A stretch of DNA of 62,905 bases, filler included. It is 5 parts of 5 records of this genome, joined end to end, with 100 filler letters (N's around TTAATTAATTAA, not from the genome) between each part and the next. Parts side by side here need not be neighbours in the genome. Positions count along the whole stretch, not along the records: positions 1 to 25,983 come from SRR15195285_749; 4 more parts are not named here. One strand, written 5' to 3'. Below are positions 3,001 through 55,101 of this stretch, one piece after another; position 1 is the first letter of the stretch, and every line of letters starts with the position of its first letter. The translations under genes were made by a program, and so were the position numbers. Below the pieces are notes generated by a model. It saw nothing but the letters and a program-made list of their open reading frames with translations, did no database searches and was not told the DNA's origin.

Positions 3001-6000
3001 AACAGCTGCTGAAAAAAGTACTGGTAAAATAACTGGCTCAACTCTATCAAACTATAGTGTAAAACAGTTAGATGACTTAGGTTTTAAAACAGTAGCTGAT
3101 GTTAAAGAGTTTCTTAAGCTTCCTGTGTTACCAGCTAGGGAAATAAATGGAAAATTAAGAGCCGCTGATAAAGACGTACCTTTAAAGTCTGGTTACAAAA
3201 TGTTAGGTGGAAACCTAGATTTAATGACTGATGCTATAAAAGAGTTTTTGAATGAATTTCCACAGTATAGAGAGATTATAAGAAGATCTACGACTAACGG
3301 ACTTAGCAGATCAAGCATAGGCTCTCCCAAGGTGTTTGATAGGGTTATACCTAAAAGCGACAAGAAGTATGATATAATTTATAGAAATACATATAAGGCT
3401 AAAGATAGAAAATTATCTAAACCGTTTGTTAAAAAAACAAAAAGTAGTGGCTTTGTTTCAGCTCAATATGCAAAATTAGATTATCTAAAAAACTATTGGA
3501 TAGATATTCAAAGTTTTTTAAAAAAGAAACCTGAGTTATCTTTTTTATTCGAACAGATGTTAGATGATGCTCAAAACGATATGGGTAGTCTAATGAGAAT
3601 AAGTCCTCCCATACTATATCTACCGTTAAACAGTAAAGGCGAAATAGACTTTAACTCGGAGATAAGGGAAGAGCATAACATGCCTCAAAACAATGTAGGT
3701 AGCATGCTTTTAGATGCAGCTATAAACGGGAATGTTGAGCAGGTGTTTAAAGTTGTTTCAGCTACGTATATGCAAGGACCACTAACAATGGCTGATGACG
3801 ATAAAGTAAATATAAAGTACAGTAGATCTATGCCTGATTTTTTCTGGGATACTATGGTTCCTAGAATACTATCAGGTGACTTAAAGATACCAGAAGGAAC
3901 AGCTTCTTTAATAAGGTTAGTTGAGTCAGATATAAACCTAGATAACTATAATTTTTTACCAGAAAATAAAACTTTTTCAGAATACTTTTTTAGCACTAAT
4001 GGATTACCTACAAATATACAAAGCAAATTATTGAAGGATTTTTTTGCAGGTGATGCTACTTTAAAGCAGATTAGAAATCAAGGATTAGCTTATAATGAAT
4101 TAGCTCCTGGAATGGCTAGAGCTTCTAAGGAAAATAATAGCATACTACCTGAAGCTATAAAGTACGATAAAGATATTACTGTTCCTATGAGCATTGCTGC
4201 TTTAGAAAAAACCGATAAAGCTTTAGAACTTGCTAGAAAAATAGATCAACCTGTTAAGAAAATTAGAGTATTTGATTTTGACGATACATTGGCTAGAACT
4301 AAAAGCAACGTGCTATACACAATGCCTGATGGAATTACTGGAGCTATTGACGCTGCTACATTTGCTAAAGAAGCAGGTAACATGGAAGCTGAAGGAGCTC
4401 AATGGGATTTCTCTGAGTTTAGTAAAGTGATGCAAGGAAGTAAAGGACCATTATTAGATGTAGCTAAGATCATAGCGGACAAACGTGGAACTAAAGATGT
4501 ATTTGTTTTAACGGCAAGACCTGCAGATGCAGCTGGACCAATTAAAGAATTCTTAGCTAGTATGGGGTTGGATATTCCACTTGCTAATATTACTGGTTTA
4601 GGTGATGGAGCTCCACAGGCTAAAGCTGGTTGGATTATGGGTAAAGCAGCTGAAGGTTATAATGACTTTTATTTCGCGGACGATCACACTGGAAACGTTA
4701 GAGCAGTTAAAGATGTACTTAGTCAAATCGATGTTAAATCTAAAGTTCAATTAGCAAAAGCCAGTAAAGAGCAAACCTTTAATACTATTGTAAACGATAT
4801 GATCGAGGATTCGTCTGGTATTGAATCCTACAAAAAGTATTCTGCAGCAAGAGCTAAAACAGTCGGCGCTAGCAAGGGTAAATATGCTTTTCTTATTCCA
4901 CCATCTGCTGAAGACTTTACAGGTTTACTATATAAAATGATAGGTAAAGGTAAAAAAGGAGATGCTCAAATGGCTTTCCTAAAAACAAACTTACTCGATA
5001 CTTACAATAGAGCTGAATCAGCGGTTACACAAGCTAAGGTGTCTGCTGCAAATGATTTTGTAGCTTTAAAAACAAAACTAAAAACACTACCTAAAACTTT
5101 AAGTAAAGAAACTGGTATTGGTAAATTCACTTACTCTCATGCAGTACGTGTTGCCGCTTGGACCAAGCAAGGTATGGATATACCAGGTTTATCTAAAAGA
5201 GATGTCAAGGAATTGGTTGACTTTGTAAACAAAGACGCTAAGCTAAGAGTATTCACTGACGAGCTTATTAAAATACAAAAAGGCAAAGAATACCCAGCGC
5301 CCGGTAAAGACTGGTTAGGTGGAAATATCACCACAGATATTATTGGTGGTATTAACAAAGTTAACAGAGCTGAGTATCAGCAAGAGTGGAGAGAGAACAT
5401 CGATGTTATATTCTCTGAAGATAATATGAACAAGATGGAGGCTGCATATGGAACTAGATGGCGTGAAGCTATGGAAGATTCTATACGTAGAATGAAATCC
5501 GGTAGCAATAGACCAATTGGAGGTAACAGAGTAACAGAAGGATTACTTAACTGGTTAAACAACTCTGTTGGCGCTGTAATGTTCTTAAATACAAGATCTG
5601 CATTGTTACAGACTATATCTGCGGTAAACTTTATAAACTTGAGTGATAATAATATAGTGAAAGCTGGAGTGGCGTTTGCAAATCAAAAACAGTTTTGGAA
5701 AGATTTTATGACGCTTATGAATTCTGACTACTTAGTAGAACGTAGAAATGGTCTTAAGATTAACGTAAGTGAGTCTGAGATTGCTGACGCTGTAAGAGAA
5801 TCTAAGAACAAACCTAAAGCAGCTATTGCTTTCTTATTAAGTAAAGGTTTTGTGATGACTAGATTTGCAGATAGTTTTGCTATTGCATCTGGTGGTTCTA
5901 CATTTTATAGAAATAGAGTTAATAAGTATGTCAAAGAAGGTGTAGAGCAGAGCGTTGCTGAAAAGCAAGCGTTTGCAGATTTTAAAGCTATAGCGGAAAC

Positions 6001-6952
6001 AAGTCAACAGTCTAGTTCACCTAGCAAGATTAGCCAACAACAAGCGTCAGCAGCAGGTCGTGTAATACTTGCTTGGGCAAATACGCCGATGCAATATGCT
6101 CGTATACAAAAACGCGCAGCTCAAGATCTTATAAATGGTCGTGGAGACTGGAGAACTCACGTGTCTAATATAGTTTACTACGGTGCTATTCAGAATTTAA
6201 TATTTAACTCGCTGCAAAGCGCTGTGTTTGCTTTAGGATTTGGAGATGACGAAGAAGAAACTGACGAGGCTAAGTCTAAAAAGAAAGAAGAAAAAGCCTA
6301 CAAGATAGCTAATGGAATGATTGATTCTCAATTAAAAGGCTTAGGTGTATTTGGAGCTGCAAGTGTAGCTATGAAAAACACTTTAATGACTCTTTATAAA
6401 GAACATAACAAAAAAAGCCCTAAGTACGAAAACGCAGTAGCTGATTTACTTAGCTTTTCACCACCACTTGGATCTAAGATAGGTAAAATAACTGGAGGTC
6501 TTAGAAGTGCTAGCTGGAATAGAAAAGATATGAAAGAAAAAGGTTTTAGCTTAGATAACCCAGCTTATATGGCAGGTGCTCAAGTTGTAACTGGTCTTAC
6601 AAATGTTCCACTTGATAGAGTTATGAAGAAGATTAACAATGTAAGAGGTATTGTTAACGAAAGATCTGCTCTATGGCAGAAAGTAGCTCTAGGTCTTGGT
6701 TGGTCAACCTGGGATGTAGGTCTTGGATATTACGGAGGTTTTGATAAAGAAAAACCATTAACACCTAAGCAGCAATTAAAGCTAGAAGTTGATACAATGA
6801 AGAAAGATACTAGTAAGCCAGAACAAATTAAAACATTACTAGATTTTGGTTTAAATAAAAAGCAAATTAGAGAGCTTAAAAACGAAAACAATAGAGTTAA
6901 AAAAATATTAGAACTACAAAAAAAAGATAAAAATGCCGGATCCAAAAAATAA
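2..6952 (+). CDS. Giant multidomain virion/ejection-type protein, 5'-truncated: zincin HExxH domain, sigma-region-2-like module, HAD phosphatase domain, helical C-terminal region
   Basis: Frame is open from base 2, so the true start lies upstream of the window. HELGH at 746-760 with a downstream Glu. VFDFDDT..LTAR..K..FADD at ~4260-4690. Lies next to the lysis genes. Confidence 0.75.
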   Translation, partial: KAGIEKSKQDLIDQNNEIVEQRVNLATNNLNKQGGELLQQSMKRQEELRNQAEALDNNNSIPDDQKAAILNALEAEFDQIEAGADKFKQAFTNTFGLLSNKEQSRLKTEAERLLKVDGNQNISGDKIARKAEQLHTKEKLEQTLQSDQSTLKALAGAGIEVGYSVEDTNAGAIKSFTAMMNFRAADENNSITQEQADSLIEEFTDGINDGTLNGFNVPSTNTKTGKKVYDSITSVQNSIANERSQTSLHELGHVITTEALGSDPAAFEETKNLILSYLEKANPEAYTRITTRTRGQSADEVLMVFFEEVADNKIKLDKAKGTGFLGYLGSMLGTAASKASNTDYNYNFKGETDIVNFAKELGRKLKDGTLTVEDVETIQQEGLGGKKEVPVIPLDEVVVTGAAASKSSREVETQEQITPEQKTKNKQLVQKIVDGDFSAINTLVQDNAGLILGPKVLGFNQDISKNSGVMSEDLLNVVQDILTPGLANLVMPGRYRDAGDTNRTGPISLAHEYNVKKGEVSTFLGLLGLRKADIYTAAGLDPNKFNLVAIDSSTKQIVDEGSDTKKPKPEKEVSTIQIDPREFGPVTEGNKLKDVESIVEVTDKERLTFKKLASKYFDKVSQALFGMPGKKVKGNASLKYADVKGQPSSSEASKLQNVFKNVEDVRNFIKSMPPYNVATSQTVIDRQGKKVDVSKDVRGRSIAINPTILKKFYQPVTRAIEGISNESGRSLGSTSQTQVYELRPEYRGRIPKTTIEALQKSLGITKGELSVPIKGPARTDFGSLLTGLSKMYVDNLINTVGRSKLTTDQAKADTGAGKNKAMASRETQKLDWKQTDEALVASFKVGNRTYKTTLEETAFMEFDEGQTYRDIENIAKDLDILEDAEGDPIESSENFYHLEFGDTKLGKGITGEGNAFEVFTTTMNGVVDYLKANPKIEGVVFTAKEPSRIRLYKTLSQVLAGKLNGSYGFKNDTFIVSTKPEATSKPKSMASREVKAEDIRTAAEKSTGKITGSTLSNYSVKQLDDLGFKTVADVKEFLKLPVLPAREINGKLRAADKDVPLKSGYKMLGGNLDLMTDAIKEFLNEFPQYREIIRRSTTNGLSRSSIGSPKVFDRVIPKSDKKYDIIYRNTYKAKDRKLSKPFVKKTKSSGFVSAQYAKLDYLKNYWIDIQSFLKKKPELSFLFEQMLDDAQNDMGSLMRISPPILYLPLNSKGEIDFNSEIREEHNMPQNNVGSMLLDAAINGNVEQVFKVVSATYMQGPLTMADDDKVNIKYSRSMPDFFWDTMVPRILSGDLKIPEGTASLIRLVESDINLDNYNFLPENKTFSEYFFSTNGLPTNIQSKLLKDFFAGDATLKQIRNQGLAYNELAPGMARASKENNSILPEAIKYDKDITVPMSIAALEKTDKALELARKIDQPVKKIRVFDFDDTLARTKSNVLYTMPDGITGAIDAATFAKEAGNMEAEGAQWDFSEFSKVMQGSKGPLLDVAKIIADKRGTKDVFVLTARPADAAGPIKEFLASMGLDIPLANITGLGDGAPQAKAGWIMGKAAEGYNDFYFADDHTGNVRAVKDVLSQIDVKSKVQLAKASKEQTFNTIVNDMIEDSSGIESYKKYSAARAKTVGASKGKYAFLIPPSAEDFTGLLYKMIGKGKKGDAQMAFLKTNLLDTYNRAESAVTQAKVSAANDFVALKTKLKTLPKTLSKETGIGKFTYSHAVRVAAWTKQGMDIPGLSKRDVKELVDFVNKDAKLRVFTDELIKIQKGKEYPAPGKDWLGGNITTDIIGGINKVNRAEYQQEWRENIDVIFSEDNMNKMEAAYGTRWREAMEDSIRRMKSGSNRPIGGNRVTEGLLNWLNNSVGAVMFLNTRSALLQTISAVNFINLSDNNIVKAGVAFANQKQFWKDFMTLMNSDYLVERRNGLKINVSESEIADAVRESKNKPKAAIAFLLSKGFVMTRFADSFAIASGGSTFYRNRVNKYVKEGVEQSVAEKQAFADFKAIAETSQQSSSPSKISQQQASAAGRVILAWANTPMQYARIQKRAAQDLINGRGDWRTHVSNIVYYGAIQNLIFNSLQSAVFALGFGDDEEETDEAKSKKKEEKAYKIANGMIDSQLKGLGVFGAASVAMKNTLMTLYKEHNKKSPKYENAVADLLSFSPPLGSKIGKITGGLRSASWNRKDMKEKGFSLDNPAYMAGAQVVTGLTNVPLDRVMKKINNVRGIVNERSALWQKVALGLGWSTWDVGLGYYGGFDKEKPLTPKQQLKLEVDTMKKDTSKPEQIKTLLDFGLNKKQIRELKNENNRVKKILELQKKDKNAGSKK

Positions 6953-24178: not shown

Positions 24179-24451
24179 TTAATTAAGGTCTGCTAGTTTA
24201 TATTCACCAGAATCTATCTTAGCTCTAGTATCTGCAGTAAATTCTCCTAAAAACTCGTTACGATATTTACTAGTTGTACGCGAGTAGTCCCAATAGTAAT
24301 CATCTAATGTAATTTTACCATTATTGTCACGTAAAGCGATAACACTGTTGTAACTTTGAAAATAAGTTCCGTAGTTCGTATATATAACGAACTGATTAGC
24401 TACAGGTCTTCCTGAGCGGTTGCTTGTCATTTGTCTAACTTTTGCTGTCAT
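24179..24451 (-). CDS. Hypothetical phage early protein
   Basis: 90-aa ORF with FQSYNSVIA...WDYSRTTSKYRNEFLG pattern. Confidence 0.7.
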   Translation of the reverse strand: MTAKVRQMTSNRSGRPVANQFVIYTNYGTYFQSYNSVIALRDNNGKITLDDYYWDYSRTTSKYRNEFLGEFTADTRAKIDSGEYKLADLN

Positions 24452-24466
24452 ATTTAATTGTTTTAG

Positions 24467-24570
24467 TGGACGTGGCAGGAATCGAACCTGCGTTACTATA
24501 TATGAGTTAGTGGGCTACTGTCTTGCAGATTTACGCGCTAACTTCCAATAGTCTAACCATTTTCACGCCC
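24467..24570 (-). ncRNA. tmRNA-TLD-like / tRNA-Ala-like RNA, 104 nt, no tag ORF or canonical anticodon arm
   Basis: Acceptor GGGCGTG/CACGTCC with G3-U70 and discriminator A; T-arm GCAGG-TTCGATT-CCTGC; 5' leader AAAATGGTTAGAC resembles a tmRNA D-loop. Confidence 0.65.
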
Positions 24571-24575
24571 ATTTG

Positions 24576-24663
24576 TAACTAGTGAGGGAATCGAACCCTC
24601 ATACTCGTCAGCAGTAATGAACTCTGGTTAATTTAATAACTCCTGTTGCATCCACACCTAGTT
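24576..24663 (-). ncRNA. Second tRNA-like RNA, ~88 nt, no canonical D or anticodon arm
   Basis: AACTAG/CTAGTT acceptor-like stem; T-arm GAGGG-TTCGATT-CCCTC. Confidence 0.5.
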
Positions 24664-24667
24664 TCCG

Positions 24668-24750
24668 CTAGAGTCGGCCTCTGAGGACAAATGCACGTCA
24701 TTAATCGATATGCCCTGACTTATATTGCCCTGATTAGACCACTCATCTAG
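24668..24750 (-). ncRNA. Long nested hairpin, candidate structured RNA
   Basis: GAGT-GGTCT/AGGCC-G-ACTC, AGGGCAA/TTGTCCT and GTCA/TGAC nested stems. Confidence 0.4.
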
Positions 24751-24774
24751 CTATTAGCTATTCGCCTCGTCTAG

Positions 24775-24963
24775 CTACTTACGCCGCCAAGCTCTGTGCA
24801 CGGATGCACTTACTTCTTGGCTGACAATTTGTATTGTATTGCCTGTCTTGTGCTCGATAATAGGTACATACGAATATGTTTGAGTTGTCGAGTGCTCAAC
24901 ACACGTTTTATAACCTAATTCCAACCTCACAGGGTGTACTTCATTTCCACATTTACAATACAT
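24775..24963 (-). CDS. DksA/TraR-like zinc-finger protein
   Basis: YCKCG..V.P.RLE....TCVEH resembles the TraR/DksA C4 finger. Confidence 0.55.
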   Translation of the reverse strand: MYCKCGNEVHPVRLELGYKTCVEHSTTQTYSYVPIIEHKTGNTIQIVSQEVSASVHRAWRRK

Positions 24964-25983: not shown

Positions 25984-26083
25984 NNNNNNNNNNNNNNNNN
26001 NNNNNNNNNNNNNNNNNNNNNNNNNNNTTAATTAATTAANNNNNNNNNNNNNNNNNNNNNNNNNNNNNNNNNNNNNNNNNNNN
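25984..26083. other. Artificial contig-joining spacer
   Basis: N44-TTAATTAATTAA-N44; base composition changes abruptly across it. Confidence 0.98.
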
Positions 26084-29000
26084 AGCCGGAGCCGGAGCCG
26101 GAGCCGGAGCTGCCAGCATCCCAGCTGGTGCGGTCGCCGTCGATGCAGCCTCCCCCGCTTCACAGCCTTCGGCAGAAGAGGGCGCCGCCTGCACTTCCTC
26201 TGTCGAAACGCGCGGCGTTCCGTGGCACACAGCAGTCTGCACGGGCCGAGCCACTTGGGACTCTGCGGGCAACTGTTCACAAAGCCACCAATCTACTAGC
26301 GATGGACAGTCGGACAGGAGATCAAGTAGGGTCCTCAGATCCGTTTGTGCGGCTCGTGATGTCTGCGCGTGCAAATGGAACTCAAATTCATGAAACCTCG
26401 GTTGTCAGCACGTCGCTCAATCCGATCTGGACAGCAGACAACGTGTTTGAGTTTCACGTTGAAGACGAAAAGGATGTGCTCTTTGCACATGTGATTGATG
26501 CCGACCCAGACGAGGATACGGATGACCACCTGGGGCAGGCAATGGTACGGGTAGGGGACTACGTAGACGGTGTGGAGGTCGGGCAGCGTGCATTCAAACT
26601 CACCCCATGTACTGACCACGAAGGCGCCAACGCAGGCGCGAGGCCAGTGCAGATAGCAACAAACCAGGAATCCGCGAGTGTTACGCAGGGCGAGCTGTTC
26701 TTGAGCTTTGTATATGTACCGGCCGGTGCACACCCGAAGCACCCGTTAGGCTGGGCAGAAGTGCAGGTGCAGCGTGCTTCCAATTTGAAAGGAGTTGATC
26801 GAAGCGGACTTAGCGATCCGTTTGTGGAAGTGATTGTTGACCAGTTCGGGCCGGTAGAAAGCGGCCACACCACATGCTTGCCGCAGACGCTCGACCCAGA
26901 GTGGTCGGATCCAGAGAGTGGCTTTGTCAAGTTGGAGGTTCGCTCCTCGACTGCGCAGCTCGTTCTCCGCTGTTGTGACAAAGATCGCTTGCTGGGAAGA
27001 ACACTGAAGAGCACTTTCCTCGGCGAGGCAGCGCTGGATCTCACCAAGCTGATCGAGTCTGCTGGGTCTTCCAGTGGTGAACAGACACTGCCGTTGGGTC
27101 CACAAGAGTTTGTCTCTATCCATTCCCGATTCCCGCCTGCAAGCCCTTCGACACCGGTCCAAGGCGACGTGACTGTTTCGGTTACGTTTGTACCGTGGAT
27201 ACCTCCACCTCCGCCACTCGGGGAGTTGTCGGTCAAAGTTGTGATGGCAGAAGAGTTGCGAGCTGCTGACTTGACCAGCAAGAATGACACATACGTTGAG
27301 TTGGTACTTGATCAAGCAAAAGGGAGCAACACGGTGCAGTACAAGCGCCATAGAACACCGACGGTCTCCAACAGCAACGCGCCCGTGTGGGACAGTACAA
27401 GCGAGTTTATGCTGCGAGTGCGAGACGCAGACGCCGTACTCTTCGCGCACTGCTTTGATGAGGACTGGGACTCGGCAGACGACTATCTCGGGGAGGCAAG
27501 TGTCTCAGTCAGCAAGTTCATGAGCTCCCCGAACGTACCGGTGCTGGTCAAACTGCCACTAGGAGAACGCACAGAGGGGTTGCCGGACGATGGTGGAGGC
27601 TCCAGAACGTTGTGCTGCGGCCTTGGTGCATCTCCCGAAGCTCGTGGCATTTTGACACTGAGCTGTCAATTTTTTCCAAACAATGCCGGGCTGGAAAAGG
27701 AAAATGTATCATTATCTAAGATAAAAGCATCAGCAGATGATGACTGGGAACATGTCGGCACGAAATCCAACACGACGCTTCTCTTTGGCTGTGCATCCGT
27801 GTGGTTTGTTGGTGCCGTGGTGTTGGCCGTCCTGCTTTTGGTTGGTGTCGTGGTCACCAAAAGCATGCTAGTCGCTGGCTGCATGGATGAAAGAGCTGTC
27901 AATTTCGATCCGGATGCGTCGAATAGTCGAGCATCAGCGTGTGTATACGTTTGGTGCGACAGTAGCGAAGACTGCAACACCCCCCGCGGCACATGTGTGT
28001 CTGGAACTTGTCGGTGCGAGCTGGGCTTCACTGGCGAGATTTGCAATGAGATCGAGCAGCTTTTTGCGCCTCGTGTCGACGGATCTCTCGAGTTACGAGG
28101 TGGTGCTAGCCCTGCTGACATTCAGCAAGCTATCGCGTCTGTCCAAGATGGCGTATCAGTTGACGATGTCGTCATAGATAGCTTCTCTCAGAATATCACT
28201 GGCATCTTGGTTGTTCCCGGTGTTTCGTACGGCATGTGGACAGATGATTCTGCACAAAGTGAACTACGGGATGCGATTGGTGCGTCTGCTGGTGTCTCTG
28301 CAGACGAAGTCACTTTCGCCAGTGTCGAACCTGTGGCAGCTGGCCGTCGTCTGCAACAAACACCCAGGACTGCGCTTACATATCTCATCTCGTCATCAAA
28401 TGATATCAGCAAAGTTCTTGGCAACGAGACTCGTTTCACCCAAAGGCTCAAACAGGAAGCAGCTCGAGCTTGCGCACTGTGCAGTGCCTTTTTGACAGCA
28501 GAAGTTTCATCGCAAGTCGTTGACGTGGTCTCTGCAGTCGTATACCACGTGGCACCTAAGTTTGCGGACTCAGCGCAAGCGTCAGCATTTGGGCAGGTCC
28601 TTCTTGACTCTCTTGGCAACCCAGACAACCTTGTGGCTGCCGCACAAAGGGGCGGGCTCTCCGTGATCTCGAGTGTAGTTGCGGAAGACTTCAGTATTGC
28701 GGAAGCATTCTCCCGTGTTGTAGACGGCCTTTGGCAGCAGTTTGTGGATCTATTCCAGCGCATGAGACCGACATTGTTGCGAAGCTCACAAACAATACAG
28801 TTTGGTGGCTGGGCTGTTGAGGTTGCGACAGCCTTCACCAGTGACTCTCCAATCACAGCACGAGTCTTAGGTGCGATTACGCTGGGTGACCTGATGTCAG
28901 ATGTGCGCTTGCCAGAAGGCCTGGCTGGAGTCATAGACCCTGTACGTGCCACAATGCTGCGCAACGTCACGGTGGTGGTCAACACGGAGCCTTTTGCTGC

Positions 29001-32000
29001 TGTTGAGTTTTCTGCCACAGTGGATGTTCGAGGCAACCCGACACCATTACGGATGACAGCCACTCGCACCGAAGATGGAGATTGGGACTATTTCACGACG
29101 ATGCGTTTCAATGCACTTTGGAGCGCAGTGGGTGCGTCTCTCGGTGACTCCCTTGGTCAGTACCTTGACCACTTGGAAGTCCCAAGCTCTGGGACAGTTC
29201 TGCTCGCAAGTGAAGCAGGCAATCGTCAGCGGGCACAGTCCAGTCCAGAATTGCTCATGAGTGCGTTCACATTTAAAATTGGGGCGCTATCTCAGATTCA
29301 AGGTACTACACCTCTGCAAAACGCACTGGCTGCTGGCGGCAATCAGCAGCTTGTGCAACAGTTTATGCTTCAGGAAATTGAAGCACTGCTACAGGAAGGT
29401 TTGGTGGGGACTATCGAATACAAAGGTCGATTGCTAGCCCTCAGTGTTGCCTGTACCAATGAAGAGGGCATCAGGCTCGGGGCTGCGATGACTGGCCCGC
29501 CTATCACAGTTGGTGAGGCACTAGGTACTGCACAGTCCAAATTCAACGAGTACTTCGTGACAAGCGGTGATGCAATGGCTACAGTGACACAGAGCGCGCT
29601 GTCGCCGCTCTTGGGCCTTGAGTTTGATCATTTTCAACTGGCGGCGAAGACCAATCCTCCAACTCTGGACGTCACCAGTGACATTAACTGGAGGGGTGTC
29701 GATGCATCTTTTGAATTGTCTATGAGCAGAAACAGCTCGCAATCCTCCTGGGATTACTCTCTGATGGTGGCCTGGCGTGACTTAGATCCGCTTGTGACGA
29801 CCCTGTCTGACTACATTGACATGCCAACTATGTCAGGCGATGCAGCGATTATGATTAGCAGTAGTACCACACCCAAGGTACGTGTTGGCACCTGGAATGG
29901 CGACGGGTTTGACGAGGTTGCGCCCAGCATGCCAGAGCTCGATCTGGAAGTGCTGGGACTGGATACGAGCGTCCTCGAATCCCGGATTTCAGGAGAAGAT
30001 GTGTCAGCACCTAGCGTACGCCAGCTGTACGAGCAGGCACACGCTCTTGCAGGTGGATTTATTCCAAGCGTCAACGATTTTGCTGTAAATCGGATGGATG
30101 AAGGCTGCAGTGGGACAGTTCGGTTTCAAGGCAGCGAGCTGAACATTTACGTCAAATCGTCAGCAGAAGGAGGATTCATATTCGGTGGCGCCTCACGTGG
30201 TGACGCCATCGATATTGGCCAGGCTCTTGGTGACGTTATGCAACAGATTCATAGCTCCTCAAGCGAATCTGACCTGAGCGATGCAATTCAGACCAATCTA
30301 GCTTTGCTCAACAACATTCAAATTGATGGCCTTGTCATTACGGGTCGCACGGAGCCTCCGAGTCTCCATGCAAGTGGTAGCGTGAACATAAATGGCATCG
30401 AGTCGGACTTCGAGTTTAGTCTCACGAAGGAGGGCGATGGCTGGGAGTTCGGATTTGTCAACCAGTGGGCAGACAGTAGCGATATTGCATCCATGATCGG
30501 ACTCAACGTTACGCAGTATGTTGGGGAGATGAGTCTTGGTCCTCTTGCTCTCATGATCTCATCTACATCAGACCCCATGGTGCAGGTCGGTGAGATGCAA
30601 CCAGGCCGCCGGCAATTGCAGGAGGCAGCCACCACCGCTTCCAGTCTGGCCAAGCAGACACTGGAGAGTCAGCTTGGCCTACCACTCGTAGTCGAGGCGT
30701 TTGTGCAAGAGCGACTGCGACCTGGGGTTGACGGCACGTTGGTGCTCGCTGGGCGAAGCCTATCTTACCGTGTTGCATGTACTCGTGCCGGTTGGCACGG
30801 CGTCGGGACCGTTAACTTCGCTGGCGACACGGGCCCCATGTTGAGTGATGCGATGGGACCAGCAGCGTTTGATACTAATGGTAGCCCAATTCCCGAGCAG
30901 TACGCACACAACTTCCAAGCGTTTCTGAGCTCTGGTCCTCGGATCGAGTCTGCTTGGCTTGAGTTCTGGACAGATCCTCCATGTGTCATTCTAACTGGAG
31001 GAGTCGCGATAGGCGAAGACAGTGGGTTGCACTTCAGCTTCATGGCGAAGGAAGCAGGAAACGGATGGCACTTTAACCTTGCCGTCCAGACAGATTTCCT
31101 CGAGGAGCTGTGGGAGTCGCTTCCACCGGACTCCCTGCACTATGTTGGCGTCGACCCCTCATGGAGTCCGACCCAACTTGCGGACCTTGCAGCATTTGCA
31201 ATTCATGTCCAGAAATCTCCTGACGATACCAAATTTGAATTGGGCACTCTCAATCCAGAAACAGGAGCAGTCGATGATATTGACCTGTTATCAGTTGCTC
31301 GTGAGTTTCCAGAGTTTGAGGCCGTCCTGGAGATCGAAGATATTCCTGTGGGCGAGCACACTGTTGCTGCACTGATACATACATCAAATGAACAGCTGTA
31401 CCTCAGTATATCAACACCGTTGGCAGTCGGGGATACCCTGTCGACAATGGTCAACTCAGCAAACGACGAGGCTGACCTGGCAGCACAGACTGCAGCTGCA
31501 CCACCACAGCTGGCCACGTTTGCAAGCGCTCTCAACAGTGCAGCGTTGGAGTCATTGGAAACCCATGTTTGGACGAACTGGGGTGACGGAATAGTGGTGC
31601 AACTTGCGGGAGACGCAAGAGTGCTGAGCGAACCTGTCGCTTTTTCACTCCTGTTTGCTGCTGATGAGGATGCAGCTACCGAATGGGAGCTGACTGTTGC
31701 ATTTGACGTGTGGAATTTTGCTGAGGATCATCTCTCACATATCGACTTCCTCCGTTTAGATCGACGTAGGTTCTTGCAAGCTGATGCCACAACCCAAGGT
31801 GTGATTCGAATAAAGGATGTTGCGGGTGTCAAGGAGCTGAAGATTGGCCGAGCCACGCTGGATGGGGTACGCGGTCCAGTGCCTGAGCAGCACTGGCCGG
31901 TTGTTGGCGCGCCACTTCAAGCAAGCGACCGTCTGATGCCTCTCGAGTACATGATGGGCAACATGGGGGTGAGCGTATATGTTCGTGCTTTCAGTGGAGA

Positions 32001-35000
32001 GGAAACGGGTTCGGGAATGGTGGCCCAAGTGATTCTAATTGACATGATGTTGGCTGATGTGGTACGCGAGACGCTAGGGCCAGCAATATCTGAACTGTGC
32101 CCAGCTGCATTCTCTGGCAATGTTTCTGTCTCGATGTTCTGCCAGCTGTTCGACGTGCTTCTGACCGTGAGCGTTGACCAACTTACTCTCGAAGCTTCCG
32201 TCTCAGACGATACAGATGCGCCGTTGGCGATTTCTATGGATGCACGTGGGCTGAGCATCCTGCACACGCCTCCTTTTGATTTGATGCTTTATGCAGAGAT
32301 CTCTTCAGATTCTCAAGTTTTCGGCTTCTCTGCCCACTGGGACTTGCTGGACTTTGGTGGCATGCTCCGAGGTGTTGATGCACTGACCATTGGGGACAAC
32401 CACATCTGCAGCATGACAATGTTTGAACCGTTTTGCTCTATCCGTGTACAGGATGCCCGCCTCATATACATTTCGCGCGAAGACATGTGTGATCAGATGC
32501 TCAACGTGTCGTACCTAGCGGACTGTGCTGCTGGGCTATACTTTGTCTCATCGATGGACTTCCCCCCGAATTTTGCTATCGGAGACTTCACCACGGAGAC
32601 GCTGCAAGGGGTCGCGGAAAGCTTACTCGGCCAGCGGCTTCCGAATCTGACCATTCCGCTCGCTCTTCCAGCAACGCCTTCCATGAAAAGCCTCCGCATG
32701 AAGCTCCCCATGAACATCATCATGGGCATGGCACGACACCTTACGGTGGGACGCCGTTCACAGGACTCGGAGATTCCTGCACTAGAGTTAGGCACCAACG
32801 GCCAAGGCACTCCCCTGATGACTGTACGAGACTTTCAGTTCATGTTGGATGCGTCCAGCTACGGTTTTGCACCAGGGTTCGAGGCAACGATGCACCTAGA
32901 CATGACAGGCGCTGCAGATGCGAGTGGTCGCCGGTTGCTGGAACTAGTAGGAGATGCACCACATGGGACACCATTTTGGCCGCAGCGACGGTTGCAGGAA
33001 ACTACGAGCGGGCCTGAGCCTGCCACTGTGGACGTGACGATCGGTTTGCTCGTTGGTGTAAAGACCCCGCCATGTGGGCCGTTCGCTGAGCTGGAAGTTT
33101 CCATCGATCCACCGCTAACATGGGTTAACCCGTTTGGTATTGCAAACTTGTCTCTGACGCTCCAAGGTGTCTCGGGTGGGTTGTGCTTTGGAACCGGTGT
33201 CCCAACGCCAAGCCGATTGGGACTGGCGGGGGGCTTTTCGTGGGGTGCCTACATGAGTGGCATGATTTTCATTGAGCTGGAGTTAGCACCGACCGCTTCG
33301 CAGTTCTTCTACGCCGAGTTCCGGTGCTCCATTGAGCCATGTACTTTGGAGGCGCTACTAGACACGATGGGCACCGAGGGCCTTGATGAAGTGCGTCCGT
33401 TTATCCCCTCCATGGGAGTCGAATGCAACAACCCATTATGCAAGGTGTCGCTAAACACTGATGGCCTTATGCCCGGAGCAACTCGCACAATACGTGATCT
33501 GTCTTCACCTATCTACAGTGAGATAGATGTGCCAGGTGGTCTAATGGTTGATATCCCAGCTTTTCACTTTTTAGGTCAGTCAGGGTACGCGTTGATTAAC
33601 ATCGGTGGGAGCGAGGGCTTCCTGCACGCAGGACTGCGCGGTCCGTTGCGACTACCTCCACCACTGAGCTGGCTGGCAATCGGACTGGATATGCCAGATT
33701 TTGAGAACCGACTGGACATGGTCTACAGTCCAGCAGGTGTCAACCTCGCTATTGCCTCTAGGATAACATGGGGCGAGTCAGAGATTGGAGCAAACTTGAC
33801 GTTGGCTGCCGATCCTGTGCCGGCGTTTCAGCTGACCCTGTTCATCAATATACCCGCGAGTGAAAGCTGTACGTTTGACTTCGCTGTGGAGGCATCAGCT
33901 GCTATGGTGCTTGACAGTGGCTCGCGAATTGGTGTTGGTGGAGACTTTACGCTTGGTATGACAGAGTTCAATCCAGACGTGGTGGAGTGCATGGCATACG
34001 AGATGCAGGCCCAAGTCAAGACGTTCTGGACGGATATGCTCGCGGAGTGGGTGGGAGACGCCGGCAATTTCCTGTCAGGAGCACGCAATGCCGTCTTCGA
34101 CGCCCTCTATACAAATAACATGGGCATGTGCCGATGCGACAGGTCTTGGCGCCCGTGCAATCCTGGTGAGTGTTCTAGTATTGATGATAATCCTTGCGCT
34201 GGTGAATGCTGGTGCGACGAGACCGCGTTTCCAGACACATGCCGATGTGCCTGCCCAGAAAACCCCGCTGACTGCATCAATCCGAGCAGCGATGATGCCG
34301 GCGAGGCGAAAATGTACGCGTGCCAATCTCGTTGCGCTACTCCGGAAGGGAGAGAGGCTGCTAAGACCGGCCAGATGCCACCAGACACAGATACTGGACG
34401 ACGGCGTGTGCAGCAGGTGGAAGGTAGCAGCATCCCAGGTCAGTACGTTCTGATCAACGGCAACCGCACGTTTGTTCCGCCGCTGACGCTACCGACCATC
34501 GAGGCCCTCATTGACGCTGACTGCCTTCAATGGGCAACTCCAGCCAAAGGGCGGAGTCATGTGGAGCATCCCACTATTTGCCTACGCTATGCTCACAAGT
34601 ACCCTCGCCTGAACGCACTGCTAGTCCGTCATCGGATGCTAATGCACGATCCTGTGGTCAAGTCGCTGCTCAAGGATGGTGGACGCGGAATCGACCTGGG
34701 CGGCGGGCGACGAGGGAGCGACGTTCTCACAGAGATCGCTGGCAAGGTGCACAAGCTGGCTTACACTTCGCGAGGAGGTCTGTCCACCAGGCGGCGAAAA
34801 GGCTTCGGTAGCTGGGCAGGACACCACTTGGAGCACCTGACTGAGGCAGCAGCAGAGGCCATTGGAGATATTGGAGATTTCTTTAGTGCGCTGGATGGCG
34901 ACTTTGATGTCATTGGTGAGTACCTGTCGCTCTACCACTTGACACGCCATGTTTTCCCCCGTAGCCATCGCTTTGATTGCGACGAGTGACATGGCATGGC

Positions 35001-36557: not shown

Positions 36558-36657
36558 NNNNNNNNNNNNNNNNNNNNNNNNNNNNNNNNNNNNNNNNNNN
36601 NTTAATTAATTAANNNNNNNNNNNNNNNNNNNNNNNNNNNNNNNNNNNNNNNNNNNN
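36558..36657. other. Artificial contig-joining spacer
   Basis: N44-TTAATTAATTAA-N44. Confidence 0.98.
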
Positions 36658-51112: not shown

Positions 51113-51212
51113 NNNNNNNNNNNNNNNNNNNNNNNNNNNNNNNNNNNNNNNNNNNNTTAATTAATTAANNNNNNNNNNNNNNNNNNNNNNNNNNNNNNNN
51201 NNNNNNNNNNNN
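51113..51212. other. Artificial contig-joining spacer
   Basis: N44-TTAATTAATTAA-N44. Confidence 0.98.
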
Positions 51213-55001: not shown

Positions 55002-55101
55002 NNNNNNNNNNNNNNNNNNNNNNNNNNNNNNNNNNNNNNNNNNNNTTAATTAATTAANNNNNNNNNNNNNNNNNNNNNNNNNNNNNNNNNNNNNNNNNNN
55101 N
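55002..55101. other. Artificial contig-joining spacer
   Basis: N44-TTAATTAATTAA-N44. Confidence 0.98.

What the first reader, a model, noticed from the sequence alone, without database searches (positions are those of the whole stretch)
24467..24570. Minimal tag-less tmRNA-like RNA in a phage early region
Seen (minus strand): GGGCGTG-AAAATGGTTAGAC-TAT...AGTTAG...CTAACT...ATAGT-AAC-GCAGG-TTCGATT-CCTGC-CACGTCC-A. It has a 7-bp acceptor with G3-U70 and A73, a perfect T-arm, a GG..GAC D-region and a long irregular arm instead of an anticodon arm; CCA is not encoded. Known: G3-U70 and A73 are alanyl-tRNA synthetase identity elements, and this layout is that of the tmRNA tRNA-like domain, but bacterial tmRNAs are about 350 nt with a tag ORF. 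Inference: an alanylatable SmpB/EF-Tu decoy, a tag-free ribosome-rescue RNA, or a decoy for tRNA-targeting defences.
Basis: partly seen in the sequence, partly recalled or inferred. Interest (0 to 1): 0.8.

Follow-up and report, generated by a model that had tools for sequence, protein, structure and literature searches.

The report
Phage tag-less mini-tmRNA gene
This phage carries a 104-base gene for only the alanine-accepting, tRNA-like head of the bacterial ribosome-rescue RNA (tmRNA), a kind first noted in one mycobacteriophage and seen here to be common in uncultured phages.

Summary
Window 24467-24570 (minus strand) has a 7-bp acceptor stem with G3.U70, discriminator A73, a 5-bp T arm and a tmRNA-type D-loop analogue. 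A 58-nt irregular arm replaces the anticodon arm, and CTA stands where CCA would be.

It belongs to a large phage family of tRNA-like-domain-only ("TLD-only", coding-less) tmRNAs. I collected 127 distinct sequences of 67-126 nt. All helices covary. In a scan that left the acceptor free, G1-C72, G2-C71, G3.U70 and A73 stayed almost invariant, which argues for selection for alanine charging. No tag reading frame is enriched.

A covariance model built without the window scores it 52.9 bits. It scores the published TLD-only tmRNA of mycobacteriophage DS6A 53.8 bits. The RNAs at the same position in two sister phages pass Rfam's tmRNA threshold. The window's copy does not (33.3 against 47 bits).

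The most likely role is a host-processed, alanine-charged RNA that binds SmpB and competes with host tmRNA. This is inferred, not shown.

The kind is known (DS6A), and earlier notes of this scan report it on other DNA. New here are the family's abundance, the exchangeable arm, and a modular non-coding array that contains a second tRNA-like RNA.

The parts
24467..24570 (-). TLD-only tmRNA-like RNA gene, G1 (24570) to discriminator A73 (24467), 104 nt
   Evidence: Sequence; Rfam tmRNA 33.3 bits, E 4.1e-11; R1 52.9 bits; fold
24564..24570 (-). Acceptor 5' strand GGGCGTG (G3 of the G3.U70 pair at 24568)
   Evidence: In the acceptor-free scan G3.U70 occurs in 79 of 80 and in 62 of 62 distinct rows of A3
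24553..24563 (-). D-loop analogue AAAATGGTTAG (TGGT..G, followed by AC that opens the arm)
   Evidence: Aligned to the tmRNA consensus at high posterior probability. TGGT was fixed by my search patterns, so its conservation is not an independent result
24495..24552 (-). P2-like arm: 5-bp base ACTAT/ATAGT, internal loops, 6-bp AGTTAG/CTAACT, 27-nt apical part. An exchangeable module
   Evidence: The same ~50-nt module lies outside any TLD RNA in L384 and L128
24492..24494 (-). 3-nt junction AAC between arm and T stem
   Evidence: The junction is 3 nt in 93 of 127, and reads AAC in 42 of the 105 with a helix of 5 bp or more
24475..24491 (-). T arm GCAGG-TTCGATT-CCTGC
24468..24474 (-). Acceptor 3' strand CACGTCC (U70 at 24470)
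24464..24466 (-). CTA where CCA would stand, so CCA must be added after 3' processing
   Evidence: In the GGGCGTG subclass the tail is CTA in 54 of 68 and CCA in 2 of 68. Position 74 is C in 123 of 127
24575..24664 (-). Second, different tRNA-like RNA ('partner'): acceptor AACTAG/CTAGTT (A3-U70, not alanine type), 4-bp helix GGTG/TACT, variable hairpin, T arm, 3' CTAGTTAC
   Evidence: 45 distinct contexts in 48 loci. The free 5' strand RACTAG is conserved and the GGTN/NRCT helix covaries. Weak R1 match of 18.5 bits
24665..24774 (-). Further non-coding modules between the 62-aa ORF and the partner RNA
   Evidence: No Rfam match at E up to 10
24775..24963 (-). 62-aa Cys-rich (zinc-ribbon-like) ORF that precedes the non-coding array
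   Evidence: Relatives lie upstream of the TLD RNA on the same strand in 63 of 259 contexts, 56 of them within 500 nt. No Pfam or PHROG hit. Atlas neighbours are viral hypothetical proteins
24179..24451 (-). 90-aa ORF (phrog_21575, function unknown) that starts 12 nt after the CTA tail
   Evidence: Only the 7 closest of 60 relatives have a TLD RNA upstream

Best explanation
Window 24467-24570(-) is a gene for a tRNA-like-domain-only (coding-less) tmRNA homologue. It is of the same kind as the 'TLD only' tmRNA of mycobacteriophage DS6A. It lies on a 35%-GC phage contig whose nearest cultured relatives infect Flavobacteriia.

Proposed working:
1. It is transcribed inside an early, same-strand gene string, at the 3' end of a roughly 310-nt modular non-coding array (inferred).
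2. Host tRNA enzymes cut it out: RNase P at G1 and a 3' endonuclease after A73/C74. The CCA enzyme then completes the end, since the gene encodes CTA (inferred).
3. Host alanyl-tRNA synthetase charges it. This is inferred from the near-invariant G1-C72, G2-C71, G3.U70 and A73, while pairs 4-7 covary freely.
4. It binds host SmpB, and as Ala-RNA also EF-Tu, through the tmRNA-type elbow (inferred from likeness to the tmRNA consensus).
5. It has no resume codon, no tag frame and no pseudoknots, so it cannot carry out tagging. Its net effect is to compete with host tmRNA, lowering the tagging and degradation of proteins from stalled ribosomes during infection. It may also add a single alanine before drop-off.

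Hudson et al. 2014 report that a similar molecule inhibits tmRNA, citing Mao et al. 2009. My confidence in the identity is about 0.9, and in this mechanism about 0.5-0.6.
For: Identity:
- The Rfam tmRNA model aligns end to end, with its core deleted.
- R1, built from 63 phage sequences of 76-81 nt that did not include the window, gives 52.9 bits for the window. It gives 53.8 bits for DS6A JN698994.1 28478-28560 and 63 bits for an unannotated RNA in the tRNA cluster of Streptomyces phage LuckySocke.
- In sister phages L024 and L028 (neighbour protein 94% and 81% identical), the RNA at the same position passes Rfam's tmRNA gathering score at 64.1 and 64.7 bits. In all, 8 of 17 TLD-bearing loci tested pass it.

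Structure under selection:
- A3 holds 86 matches, 62 of them distinct. 92.8% of cells are paired against 62.9 +/- 0.9 in shuffles, and the covariation score is 0.681 against 0.149, with 0 of 500 shuffles as high. 18 of 22 pairs show compensatory changes.

Alanine identity:
- A scan that left acceptor, discriminator and tail free gave 83 distinct sequences, 82 of which could be evaluated. 78 have 7 of 7 acceptor pairs and 2 have 6.
- Of those 80: G3.U70 in 79, A73 in 80, G1-C72 in 79, G2-C71 in 78. There are 31 different acceptor stems.

Tag-less:
- ARAGORN finds no tmRNA.
- GCN-to-stop frames of 2-25 codons occur in 45 of 127, against a shuffle mean of 49.4, sd 5.2.

Dependence on host factors:
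- No SmpB gene (PF01668) and no full-length tmRNA were found in 5 related phage records, 4 of them at least 90% complete.

Literature:
- PMC11915505 (passages): DS6A is one of the CDS-less forms, and 'Standard, no CDS' counts 9 unique sequences.
Against: - The window's copy scores 33.3 bits, below Rfam's tmRNA gathering score of 47. DS6A also does not reach it.
- Nothing here shows transcription, processing, charging or SmpB binding. RNA-library contigs hold the region but cannot prove expression.
- According to Hudson et al., the inhibitory test molecule of Mao et al. worked whether or not it could be charged. Pure SmpB titration therefore does not explain why the alanine identity set is so strictly kept.
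- The gene lies 12 nt before the next start codon, with no promoter-like site of its own. In another lineage it lies between the prohead protease and major capsid genes. Both positions would also suit a message-processing role.
- The acceptor of the window's own GGGCGTG subclass does not vary, and my main patterns fixed it. The identity argument therefore rests on the wider family.
- A3 is fitted to the model, which leans its pair counts towards the structure.
- Family members are related by descent, so the counts are not independent events.
Confidence: 0.6

Rival explanations
1. The element is mainly a processing signal in the message (a 't-element'). The tRNA-like fold recruits RNase P and a 3' tRNA endonuclease to cut the polycistronic transcript. 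This releases or stabilises the upstream non-coding modules and sets the 5' end of the downstream mRNA. The excised RNA itself would have no further role.
For: - It sits at the 3' end of a non-coding array, 12 nt before the next start codon, all on one strand.
- No promoter-like or terminator-like site is specific to it.
- In about 46 of 259 contexts, family members lie between the prohead protease and major capsid genes.
- A Pistol self-cleaving ribozyme lies about 100 nt upstream of a family member in L135, so RNA cutting is a theme of these arrays.
- Earlier scan notes e1-6040685 and e1-5339518 reached this reading for other phage tRNA-like elements.
Against: To my knowledge, RNase P and 3' endonuclease recognition does not need G3.U70, A73, G1-C72 or G2-C71. 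Yet these are kept in 78-80 of 80 while pairs 4-7 vary. The tmRNA-specific D-loop analogue and junction are kept too. The two roles do not exclude each other.
Confidence: 0.15
2. The element is a decoy or shield against host defences that sense or cut tRNA or tmRNA. Candidates are anticodon-type or HEPN nucleases, and systems with SmpB-like RNA-binding domains. It would soak up such factors instead of acting on trans-translation itself.
For: - It lies in an early region of small ORFs, typical for host-takeover genes.
- Within the closest phages the RNA at this site is swapped between subclasses and arm types, a pattern often seen in arms-race loci.
- CoCoNuT restriction systems carry SmpB-like OB folds that are predicted to bind tmRNA-like RNA (PMC10542128, passages).
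- A phage anti-CRISPR protein associates with fragments of tRNA and tmRNA (PMC11662646, passages).
Against: No defence system is known to be countered by such an RNA. There is no anticodon loop to decoy an anticodon nuclease. The conserved charging identity is not obviously needed for a decoy. All the support is circumstantial.
Confidence: 0.1
3. The element is a very short but functional tmRNA with a mini tag. In the window the frames would be GCG CGT AAA TCT GCA AGA CAG TAG (ARKSARQ*) or GCA AGA CAG TAG (ARQ*), read from the apical loop of the arm.
For: Such frames exist in the window and in L030. tmRNAs with 2-residue tags are reported (PMC11915505, passage).
Against: The frames are not enriched: 45 of 127 against 49.4 +/- 5.2 in shuffles, and 170 of 200 shuffles reach the observed count. 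Among the 46 sequences of 85 nt or more the figures are 27 against 28.1. The putative peptides are not conserved, and many long-armed members have no such frame. The 78-82-nt members have only a 15-16-nt apical loop. ARAGORN calls no tmRNA here.
Confidence: 0.03
4. The element is a decayed tRNA or tmRNA pseudogene, an intron-containing tRNA, or an attP-type fragment of a host tmRNA gene.
For: - It scores below the Rfam thresholds.
- The 70-nt version in L025 scores 32 bits on the tRNA model, whose GA is 29.
- ARAGORN calls one 87-nt member (L153) a tRNA-Ile.
Against: - Compensatory changes occur in all helices across 62-127 distinct sequences.
- Both halves of the acceptor are present.
- No tyrosine integrase was found in 5 related genomes.
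- The exact 3' end occurs in 12 places among one genome each of 185,579 species. 5 are ordinary tRNAs in high-GC MAGs and 7 are mini RNAs on low-GC MAG contigs. None is a bacterial tmRNA.
- ARAGORN made no call on the TLD RNA in 42 of 45 loci.
- The near-identical copy in G004 has no tRNA-model match at E up to 0.01.
Confidence: 0.02

Closest known systems
'TLD only' (CDS-less) tmRNA of Mycobacterium phage DS6A (tmRNA Website tmID 11587; Hudson, Lau & Williams 2014, PMC4131195; 'Standard, no CDS' form in PMC11915505)
   Same: Both are phage-encoded RNAs of about 80-105 nt with an acceptor stem carrying G3.U70 and A73, a tmRNA-type D-loop analogue, one P2-like arm and a T arm, and with no tag frame and no pseudoknots. 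One covariance model scores DS6A at 53.8 bits and the window at 52.9 bits. DS6A also ends A-CUA rather than A-CCA.
   Different: The window's arm is 58 nt, irregular, and built from a module that occurs elsewhere in related phages. DS6A and the 78-82-nt class have a 7-bp stem capped by a conserved AAAGCC..GG.A loop. The host group differs (probably Flavobacteriia). The window's RNA ends a multi-module non-coding array.
Canonical bacterial tmRNA (ssrA; Rfam RF00023)
   Same: The tRNA-like domain is shared: the GGG...UCCA acceptor with G3.U70 and A73, UGG..GAC, the AC junction and the GGUUCGAUUCC T loop. It aligns over model positions 1-19 and 346-374.
   Different: 326 model positions (PK1, resume codon, tag frame, PK2-4) are replaced by 59 nt. 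The score of 33.3 bits is below the GA of 47. CCA is not encoded.
Full-length and two-piece tmRNAs of phages (mycobacteriophage Bxz1 group; marine myophages such as Melnitz, PMC9004378)
   Same: These too are phage-borne relatives of ssrA. They are frequent in marine phages and are placed early in the genome (passages).
   Different: Those keep a tag-coding domain and are found by ARAGORN. This one has none and is missed. No full-length tmRNA was found in 5 related genomes.
CDS-less organellar tmRNAs (jakobid mitochondria; Mallomonadaceae plastids of about 65 bp; PMC11915505, passage read)
   Same: Both show reduction of tmRNA to little more than the tRNA-like domain while SmpB is kept elsewhere.
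   Different: Those are organellar, vertically inherited remnants. Here the RNA is a phage gene that acts beside an intact host tmRNA. I made no direct comparison.
tRNA-like processing elements (plant mitochondrial t-elements, mascRNA type; recalled, and cited in earlier scan notes)
   Same: Both are anticodon-less tRNA-like folds embedded in longer transcripts, placed where cleavage would separate functional units.
   Different: To my knowledge those elements do not keep an aminoacylation identity set. This family does.

Membership tests
tmRNA (ssrA, Rfam RF00023) | tRNA-like domain: 7-bp acceptor with G3.U70, A73, T arm, D-loop analogue | tested here: met
tmRNA (ssrA, Rfam RF00023) | Score at or above Rfam's gathering threshold (47 bits) | tested here: not met
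   33.3 bits and no match at GA. The syntenic RNAs in L024 and L028 do pass, at 64.1 and 64.7 bits
tmRNA (ssrA, Rfam RF00023) | mRNA-like domain with a resume codon and a tag frame closed by a stop | tested here: not met
   ARAGORN finds none. Mini-frames occur at chance level, 45 of 127 against 49.4 +/- 5.2
tmRNA (ssrA, Rfam RF00023) | Pseudoknots PK1-PK4 | tested here: not met
   Only 59 nt lie between the two TLD halves, and they fold as one arm
tmRNA (ssrA, Rfam RF00023) | Alanylation by AlaRS and binding of SmpB and EF-Tu | not testable with these tools
   Only inferred, from conserved identity elements
TLD-only / 'Standard, no CDS' tmRNA (DS6A type) | tmRNA-type TLD present and no coding domain | tested here: met
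TLD-only / 'Standard, no CDS' tmRNA (DS6A type) | Likeness to the DS6A element beyond generic tRNA features | tested here: met
   R1 scores DS6A 53.8 bits and the window 52.9 bits, while ordinary tRNAs in L392 and L393 score 15-23 bits
TLD-only / 'Standard, no CDS' tmRNA (DS6A type) | Inhibits endogenous tmRNA when expressed | not testable with these tools
   Known only from citations of Mao et al. 2009, which is not held
tRNA (Rfam RF00005) | Cloverleaf with an anticodon arm; detector call | tested here: not met
   ARAGORN finds 0 genes. No RF00005 match at GA. The near-identical copy in G004 has no match at E up to 0.01
Two-piece (permuted) tmRNA | Acceptor 3' piece encoded upstream of the 5' piece; the two halves pair in trans | tested here: not met
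   The upstream element's 3' strand CTAGTTA does not pair with GGGCGTG. Each RNA closes its own acceptor stem
tRNA-like mRNA processing element (t-element) | tRNA-like fold inside a longer transcript, cut by RNase P or RNase Z | tested here: inconclusive
   The position fits. Cleavage cannot be tested, and contigs of RNA libraries do not show RNA ends

The most novel reading that the evidence does not exclude
In this phage group the tmRNA head may serve as a natural tRNA-type scaffold. Its arm would be an insertion site for exchangeable hairpin modules drawn from a pool that also fills the adjacent non-coding array. The window's arm module sits outside any TLD RNA in L384 and L128, and other arms share modules with upstream regions. 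Alanine charging and SmpB/EF-Tu binding would then stabilise these cargo hairpins or deliver them to stalled ribosomes. Together with the second tRNA-like RNA, the array would form a processed multi-RNA host-takeover operon.
Probability: 0.12. Interest if true: 0.8.

Novelty: new member of a known kind. Interest (0 to 1): 0.5.

Why it matters
Trans-translation by tmRNA-SmpB is the main bacterial ribosome-rescue path and an antibiotic target. A TLD-only tmRNA was known from one phage, DS6A, and the 2025 tmRNA database counts only 9 'Standard, no CDS' sequences.

Members lie in at least three genomic settings: the early region, the gap between protease and capsid genes, and tRNA arrays. At least one cultured, tractable phage carries an unannotated member: Streptomyces phage LuckySocke.

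The strictly kept alanine identity set suggests that charging matters. The simple 'SmpB sponge' idea does not predict this, and it can be tested directly. If these RNAs block or redirect ribosome rescue, they are natural RNA inhibitors of trans-translation.

Standard annotation misses them. ARAGORN made no call on them in 42 of 45 loci, and Rfam's thresholds are not reached by the window's subclass.

Tried and rejected
- Pattern errors. Two IMG/VR scans used a pattern with one N too many in the T stem. They gave 2 and 0 loci and were wasted. I corrected the pattern after a local test.
- Tag frame. The ARQ*/ARKSARQ* frames in the window looked suggestive, but such frames are at chance level in the family.
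- Upstream element as a 180-nt tmRNA-like RNA closed by TAGCTAG/CTAGTTA with G3.U70. I rejected this. CTAG is palindromic, and the alignment of 45 contexts shows that the conserved 5' partner of CTAGTT is the nearer AACTAG, which gives A3-U70.
- Hammerhead-like CTGACGAG...GAAAC in the partner RNA. It is not conserved as such, and there is no Rfam ribozyme match at E up to 10.
- Host tmRNA copy or attP fragment. No bacterial tmRNA has this 3' end, and there is no integrase.
- BLAST against cultured phages. There is no match for the 601-nt region. For the RNA alone, matches cover only the T-arm and 3' end, at most 31% of it.
- Cellulophaga phage phi10:1, the nearest cultured relative by primase/helicase at 44% identity. 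In the first 50,000 of its 53,664 bases, R1 hits only its two tRNAs at about 23 bits, plus one weaker match between them at 19.5 bits.
- Promoter and terminator scans. Sigma-70-like sites number 9 against 8.8 expected. No TAnnTTTG motif lies near the RNA on its strand.
- Expression. 19 runs hold part of the 1.2-kb stretch, 6 of them filed as RNA. I laid the contigs of four RNA-type libraries. They are contigs, DNA carry-over cannot be excluded, and no silent stretch or DNA run was laid beside them, so transcription is not shown. Contigs break at 24465 and 24570, and joints such as 24763-to-24503 (X5, X3) and 24495-to-24691 (X16) are compatible with strain-level module swaps. They were laid at 90% likeness and may come from related phages.
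- Association with the 90-aa protein. Only 7 of 60 relatives have a TLD RNA upstream, so there is no general link.
- 62-aa ORF. It has no Pfam or PHROG family. The Atlas gives only viral hypothetical clusters, and the nearest named one (zf-dskA_traR, 0.87) is below the level to trust.
- Not attempted. No structure or complex prediction was run, because the tool does not take RNA. Mao et al. 2009 is not held, so its result is quoted second-hand. Supplementary tables of PMC11915505 were not seen. They may list more phage 'no CDS' sequences than the text says.
- Literature searches for this family in phages or viromes found only the DS6A mentions.
Full report
**The window and the locus.** The 62,905-base window is a chain of five contigs joined by N spacers. 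Contig 1 (1-25983) has 35% G+C and the others 55-59%. No whole genome is held for the window. Contig 1 is phage-like: it encodes ribonucleotide reductase subunits, a primase/helicase, thymidylate synthase, MazG, an exonuclease, a sigma factor and a DNA ligase. Its primase/helicase is closest to that of Cellulophaga phage phi10:1 (44% identity), followed by other phages of Flavobacteriia. A marine Bacteroidota host is therefore the best guess, and only a guess. The finding lies in a run of small minus-strand ORFs near the contig end.

**The observation.**
- Acceptor GGGCGTG/CACGTCC: 7 bp, with G3.U70.
- An 11-nt single-stranded stretch, AAAATGGTTAG.
- An arm closed by ACTAT/ATAGT, with an inner AGTTAG/CTAACT helix.
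- The junction AAC.
- The T arm GCAGG-TTCGATT-CCTGC.
- Discriminator A, then CTA instead of CCA.

The MFE fold shows these helices (-29.9 kcal/mol, z -2.11, 6 of 200 shuffles as good). ARAGORN finds no tRNA or tmRNA in the window, and no Rfam family reaches its threshold. With permissive settings the Rfam tmRNA model aligns from its first to its last position at 33.3 bits (gathering score 47). E is 4.1e-11 for the 2.5 kb searched, and 59 nt stand in place of the 326 core positions.

**A family.**
- A pattern scan of IMG/VR that was free in the acceptor gave 23 loci, 8 of them with close relatives.
- The 90-aa protein encoded just downstream has 60 relatives in IMG/VR. The 7 closest (77-94% identity) have such an RNA at the same place.
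- Together with 7 copies on low-GC MAG contigs, this makes 127 distinct sequences of 67-126 nt.

Pair 4-69, left free in the pattern, is a standard pair in 127 of 127. The T stem is fully paired in 126 of 127, with 31 different stems. A helix of at least 5 bp that ends 2-4 nt before the T stem is present in 105 of 127, against 14-30 in 20 shuffles of the interior. It has 68 different 5-nt strands.

I built covariance model R1 from 63 members of 76-81 nt, without the window. It scores the window at 52.9 bits. An Infernal alignment of 86 matches (62 distinct) has 92.8% of cells paired against 62.9% in shuffles. Its covariation score is 0.681 against 0.149, with 0 of 500 shuffles as high. 18 of 22 pairs show compensatory changes. 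That alignment is fitted to the model, so it leans towards the structure. The slid-partner control drops to 44-52% paired.

- Of 83 distinct sequences, 82 could be evaluated.
- 78 have 7 of 7 acceptor pairs, 2 have 6 and 2 have 4.
- Among the 80 with at least 6 pairs: G3.U70 in 79, A73 in 80, G1-C72 in 79, G2-C71 in 78.
- Pairs 4-7 vary, giving 31 different stems.

G3.U70 with A73 is the established identity set of alanyl-tRNA synthetase (textbook knowledge, recalled). Such strict retention beside free covariation of the neighbouring pairs argues that charging, or at least AlaRS binding, is selected.

The 3' tail is CCA in only 22 of these 80. In the window's GGGCGTG subclass it is CTA in 54 of 68 and CCA in 2 of 68, while position 74 is C in 123 of 127. 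CCA must therefore be added after 3' processing. I recall that encoded CCA hinders RNase Z, so a CTA tail would permit that cut. This step is an inference.

**No tag.** Frames that begin with GCN and end at a stop inside the arm (2-25 codons) occur in 45 of 127 sequences, against 49.4 +/- 5.2 in shuffles. In the 46 sequences of at least 85 nt the figures are 27 against 28.1 +/- 3.5. The window's ARQ*/ARKSARQ* frames are therefore unremarkable. The 78-82-nt members have only a conserved 15-16-nt cap (AAAGCC..GG.A) on a 7-bp stem.

**Link to what is known.**
- Hudson, Lau and Williams 2014 (PMC4131195, passages read) list DS6A as 'TLD only'. They write that a similar molecule, chargeable or not, strongly inhibits tmRNA, perhaps by titrating SmpB. 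They cite Mao et al. 2009, which I could not read.
- The 2025 tmRNA database paper (PMC11915505, passages) counts 79 phage tmRNAs and 9 'Standard, no CDS' sequences. It says the DS6A form inhibits endogenous tmRNA in E. coli.
- R1 hits DS6A (JN698994.1 28478-28560, unannotated there) at 53.8 bits. It hits an unannotated 81-nt RNA in the tRNA cluster of Streptomyces phage LuckySocke at 63 bits.
- At Rfam's own threshold the tmRNA model accepts 8 of 17 TLD-bearing loci I tested. These include L024 and L028, the window's sister phages with the RNA at the same position, and LuckySocke. One locus (L025, 70 nt) passes the tRNA threshold instead. 8 pass neither, DS6A among them.

The window's RNA is thus a long-armed, lower-scoring member of a family whose short members are formally tmRNA.

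**Host dependence and rivals.** Five related phage records (four at least 90% complete) have no SmpB gene, no tyrosine integrase and no full-length tmRNA. Each has one strong R1 match per genome and at most one ordinary tRNA. The exact 3' end occurs 12 times in one genome each of 185,579 species. 5 are ordinary tRNAs and 7 are mini RNAs on low-GC MAG contigs. None is a bacterial tmRNA. It is therefore not an att-site fragment or a straight copy of a host gene.

**Context.** In all eight close relatives, a conserved 62-aa Cys-rich ORF (ending ...GCTTGGCGGCGTAA) is followed by 200-500 nt of non-coding, hairpin-rich sequence that ends with the TLD RNA. Over 259 distinct TLD contexts:
- Relatives of that ORF lie upstream on the same strand in 63.
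- In another, high-GC lineage the RNA lies between the prohead protease (45 contexts) and the major capsid gene (47 contexts).
- In LuckySocke and L147 it lies inside tRNA arrays.

These contexts are not phylogenetically independent.

Directly upstream in the window (24575-24664) lies a second, different tRNA-like RNA.
- Its acceptor is AACTAG/CTAGTT (A3-U70).
- It has a covarying 4-bp helix, a variable hairpin, a conserved ACYGACGRGTAT linker, a T arm, and the 3' end CTAGTTAC.
- It occurs in 45 distinct contexts.
- A TLD RNA follows within 400 nt in 16 of the 45 by strict pattern. R1 finds matches of at least 34 bits in 13 of 35 newly fetched loci.

Modules move. The window's arm module is 98% identical over 50 nt to a stretch of L384 that lies outside any TLD RNA, and 88% identical over 52 aligned positions to one in L128. 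Other arms share modules with upstream arrays. In L135 a Pistol ribozyme lies about 100 nt upstream of the TLD RNA.

**Mechanism and verdict.** The best-supported reading has the RNA cut out by host tRNA enzymes, given CCA, charged with alanine and bound by host SmpB. It then competes with host tmRNA. Lacking a message, it cannot tag.
- Shown here: the structure, its selection, the selection on the identity set, the absence of a tag, and the absence of phage SmpB.
- Inferred: processing, charging, SmpB binding and the effect on the host.

A role as a message-processing signal is compatible with the position and may coexist, but it does not explain the identity set. Decoy functions against defence systems remain speculative. 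Expression could not be shown from contigs of RNA libraries.

The kind is known, and earlier notes of this scan report it on other DNA. I file the element as a new member of a known kind, with three features I did not find in print: the abundance of the family, the exchangeable arm, and the multi-RNA array.

Noticed in passing
window 24575-24664 (-): A second conserved tRNA-like RNA sits directly upstream of the TLD RNA. It has acceptor AACTAG/CTAGTT (A3-U70), a covarying 4-bp helix, a variable hairpin, the linker ACYGACGRGTAT, a T arm and the 3' end CTAGTTAC. It occurs in 45 distinct contexts in IMG/VR and has no Rfam match.
   Followed up: partly
window 24665-24774 (-) and the matching regions of L024-L030: This is a modular non-coding array of hairpins rich in the palindrome CTAG. 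The modules are shuffled between phages and between the array and TLD arms.
   Followed up: partly
window 24775-24963 (-): A 62-aa Cys-rich ORF with no Pfam or PHROG family. Relatives precede the TLD RNA in 63 of 259 contexts, so it may be functionally tied to the RNA array.
   Followed up: partly
L135:6093-6154 (-): A Pistol self-cleaving ribozyme (51.9 bits, GA 34.5) lies about 100 nt upstream of a TLD-only RNA that scores 81.1 bits on Rfam tmRNA. ARAGORN merges the region into a 324-nt 'tmRNA' with an odd tag.
   Followed up: no
L250, L197 and about 45 further loci: In a high-GC phage lineage the TLD-only RNA lies between the prohead serine protease and the HK97-type major capsid gene.
   Followed up: partly
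L392:1491-1571 (OR725497.1 17977-18057): Streptomyces phage LuckySocke, a cultured phage, has an unannotated 81-nt TLD-only tmRNA between tRNA-Val and tRNA-Ser. BLAST suggests the same in phages GiJojo, pSt2308, BRock and Alone3.
   Followed up: partly
window 25984-26083, 36558-36657, 51113-51212, 55002-55101: The window is five contigs joined by N spacers around TTAATTAATTAA. The phage contig (35% GC) differs sharply from the other four (55-59% GC), so it may be a mis-binned or co-assembled phage.
   Followed up: partly
window 2-6952 (+): A reading frame of more than 2,316 aa, open at the contig start, on the strand opposite to the early genes. I did not analyse it.
   Followed up: no
window 26128-34989 (+): A 2,953-aa ORF on the neighbouring high-GC contig, which begins with Ala/Gly/Pro-rich repeats. 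I did not analyse it.
   Followed up: no
L003, L007, L012, L013, L019: Another recurrent phage RNA has a class-II-tRNA-like 5' part (…GGCGGAATTGGTTAGACGC) and a T arm, with long odd inserts and an acceptor without G3.U70. I did not study it.
   Followed up: no
L153:2851-2938 (-): ARAGORN calls this 87-nt family member a tRNA-Ile(GAT) even though it has the GGGGGTG/CACCTCC-A alanine-type acceptor.
   Followed up: no
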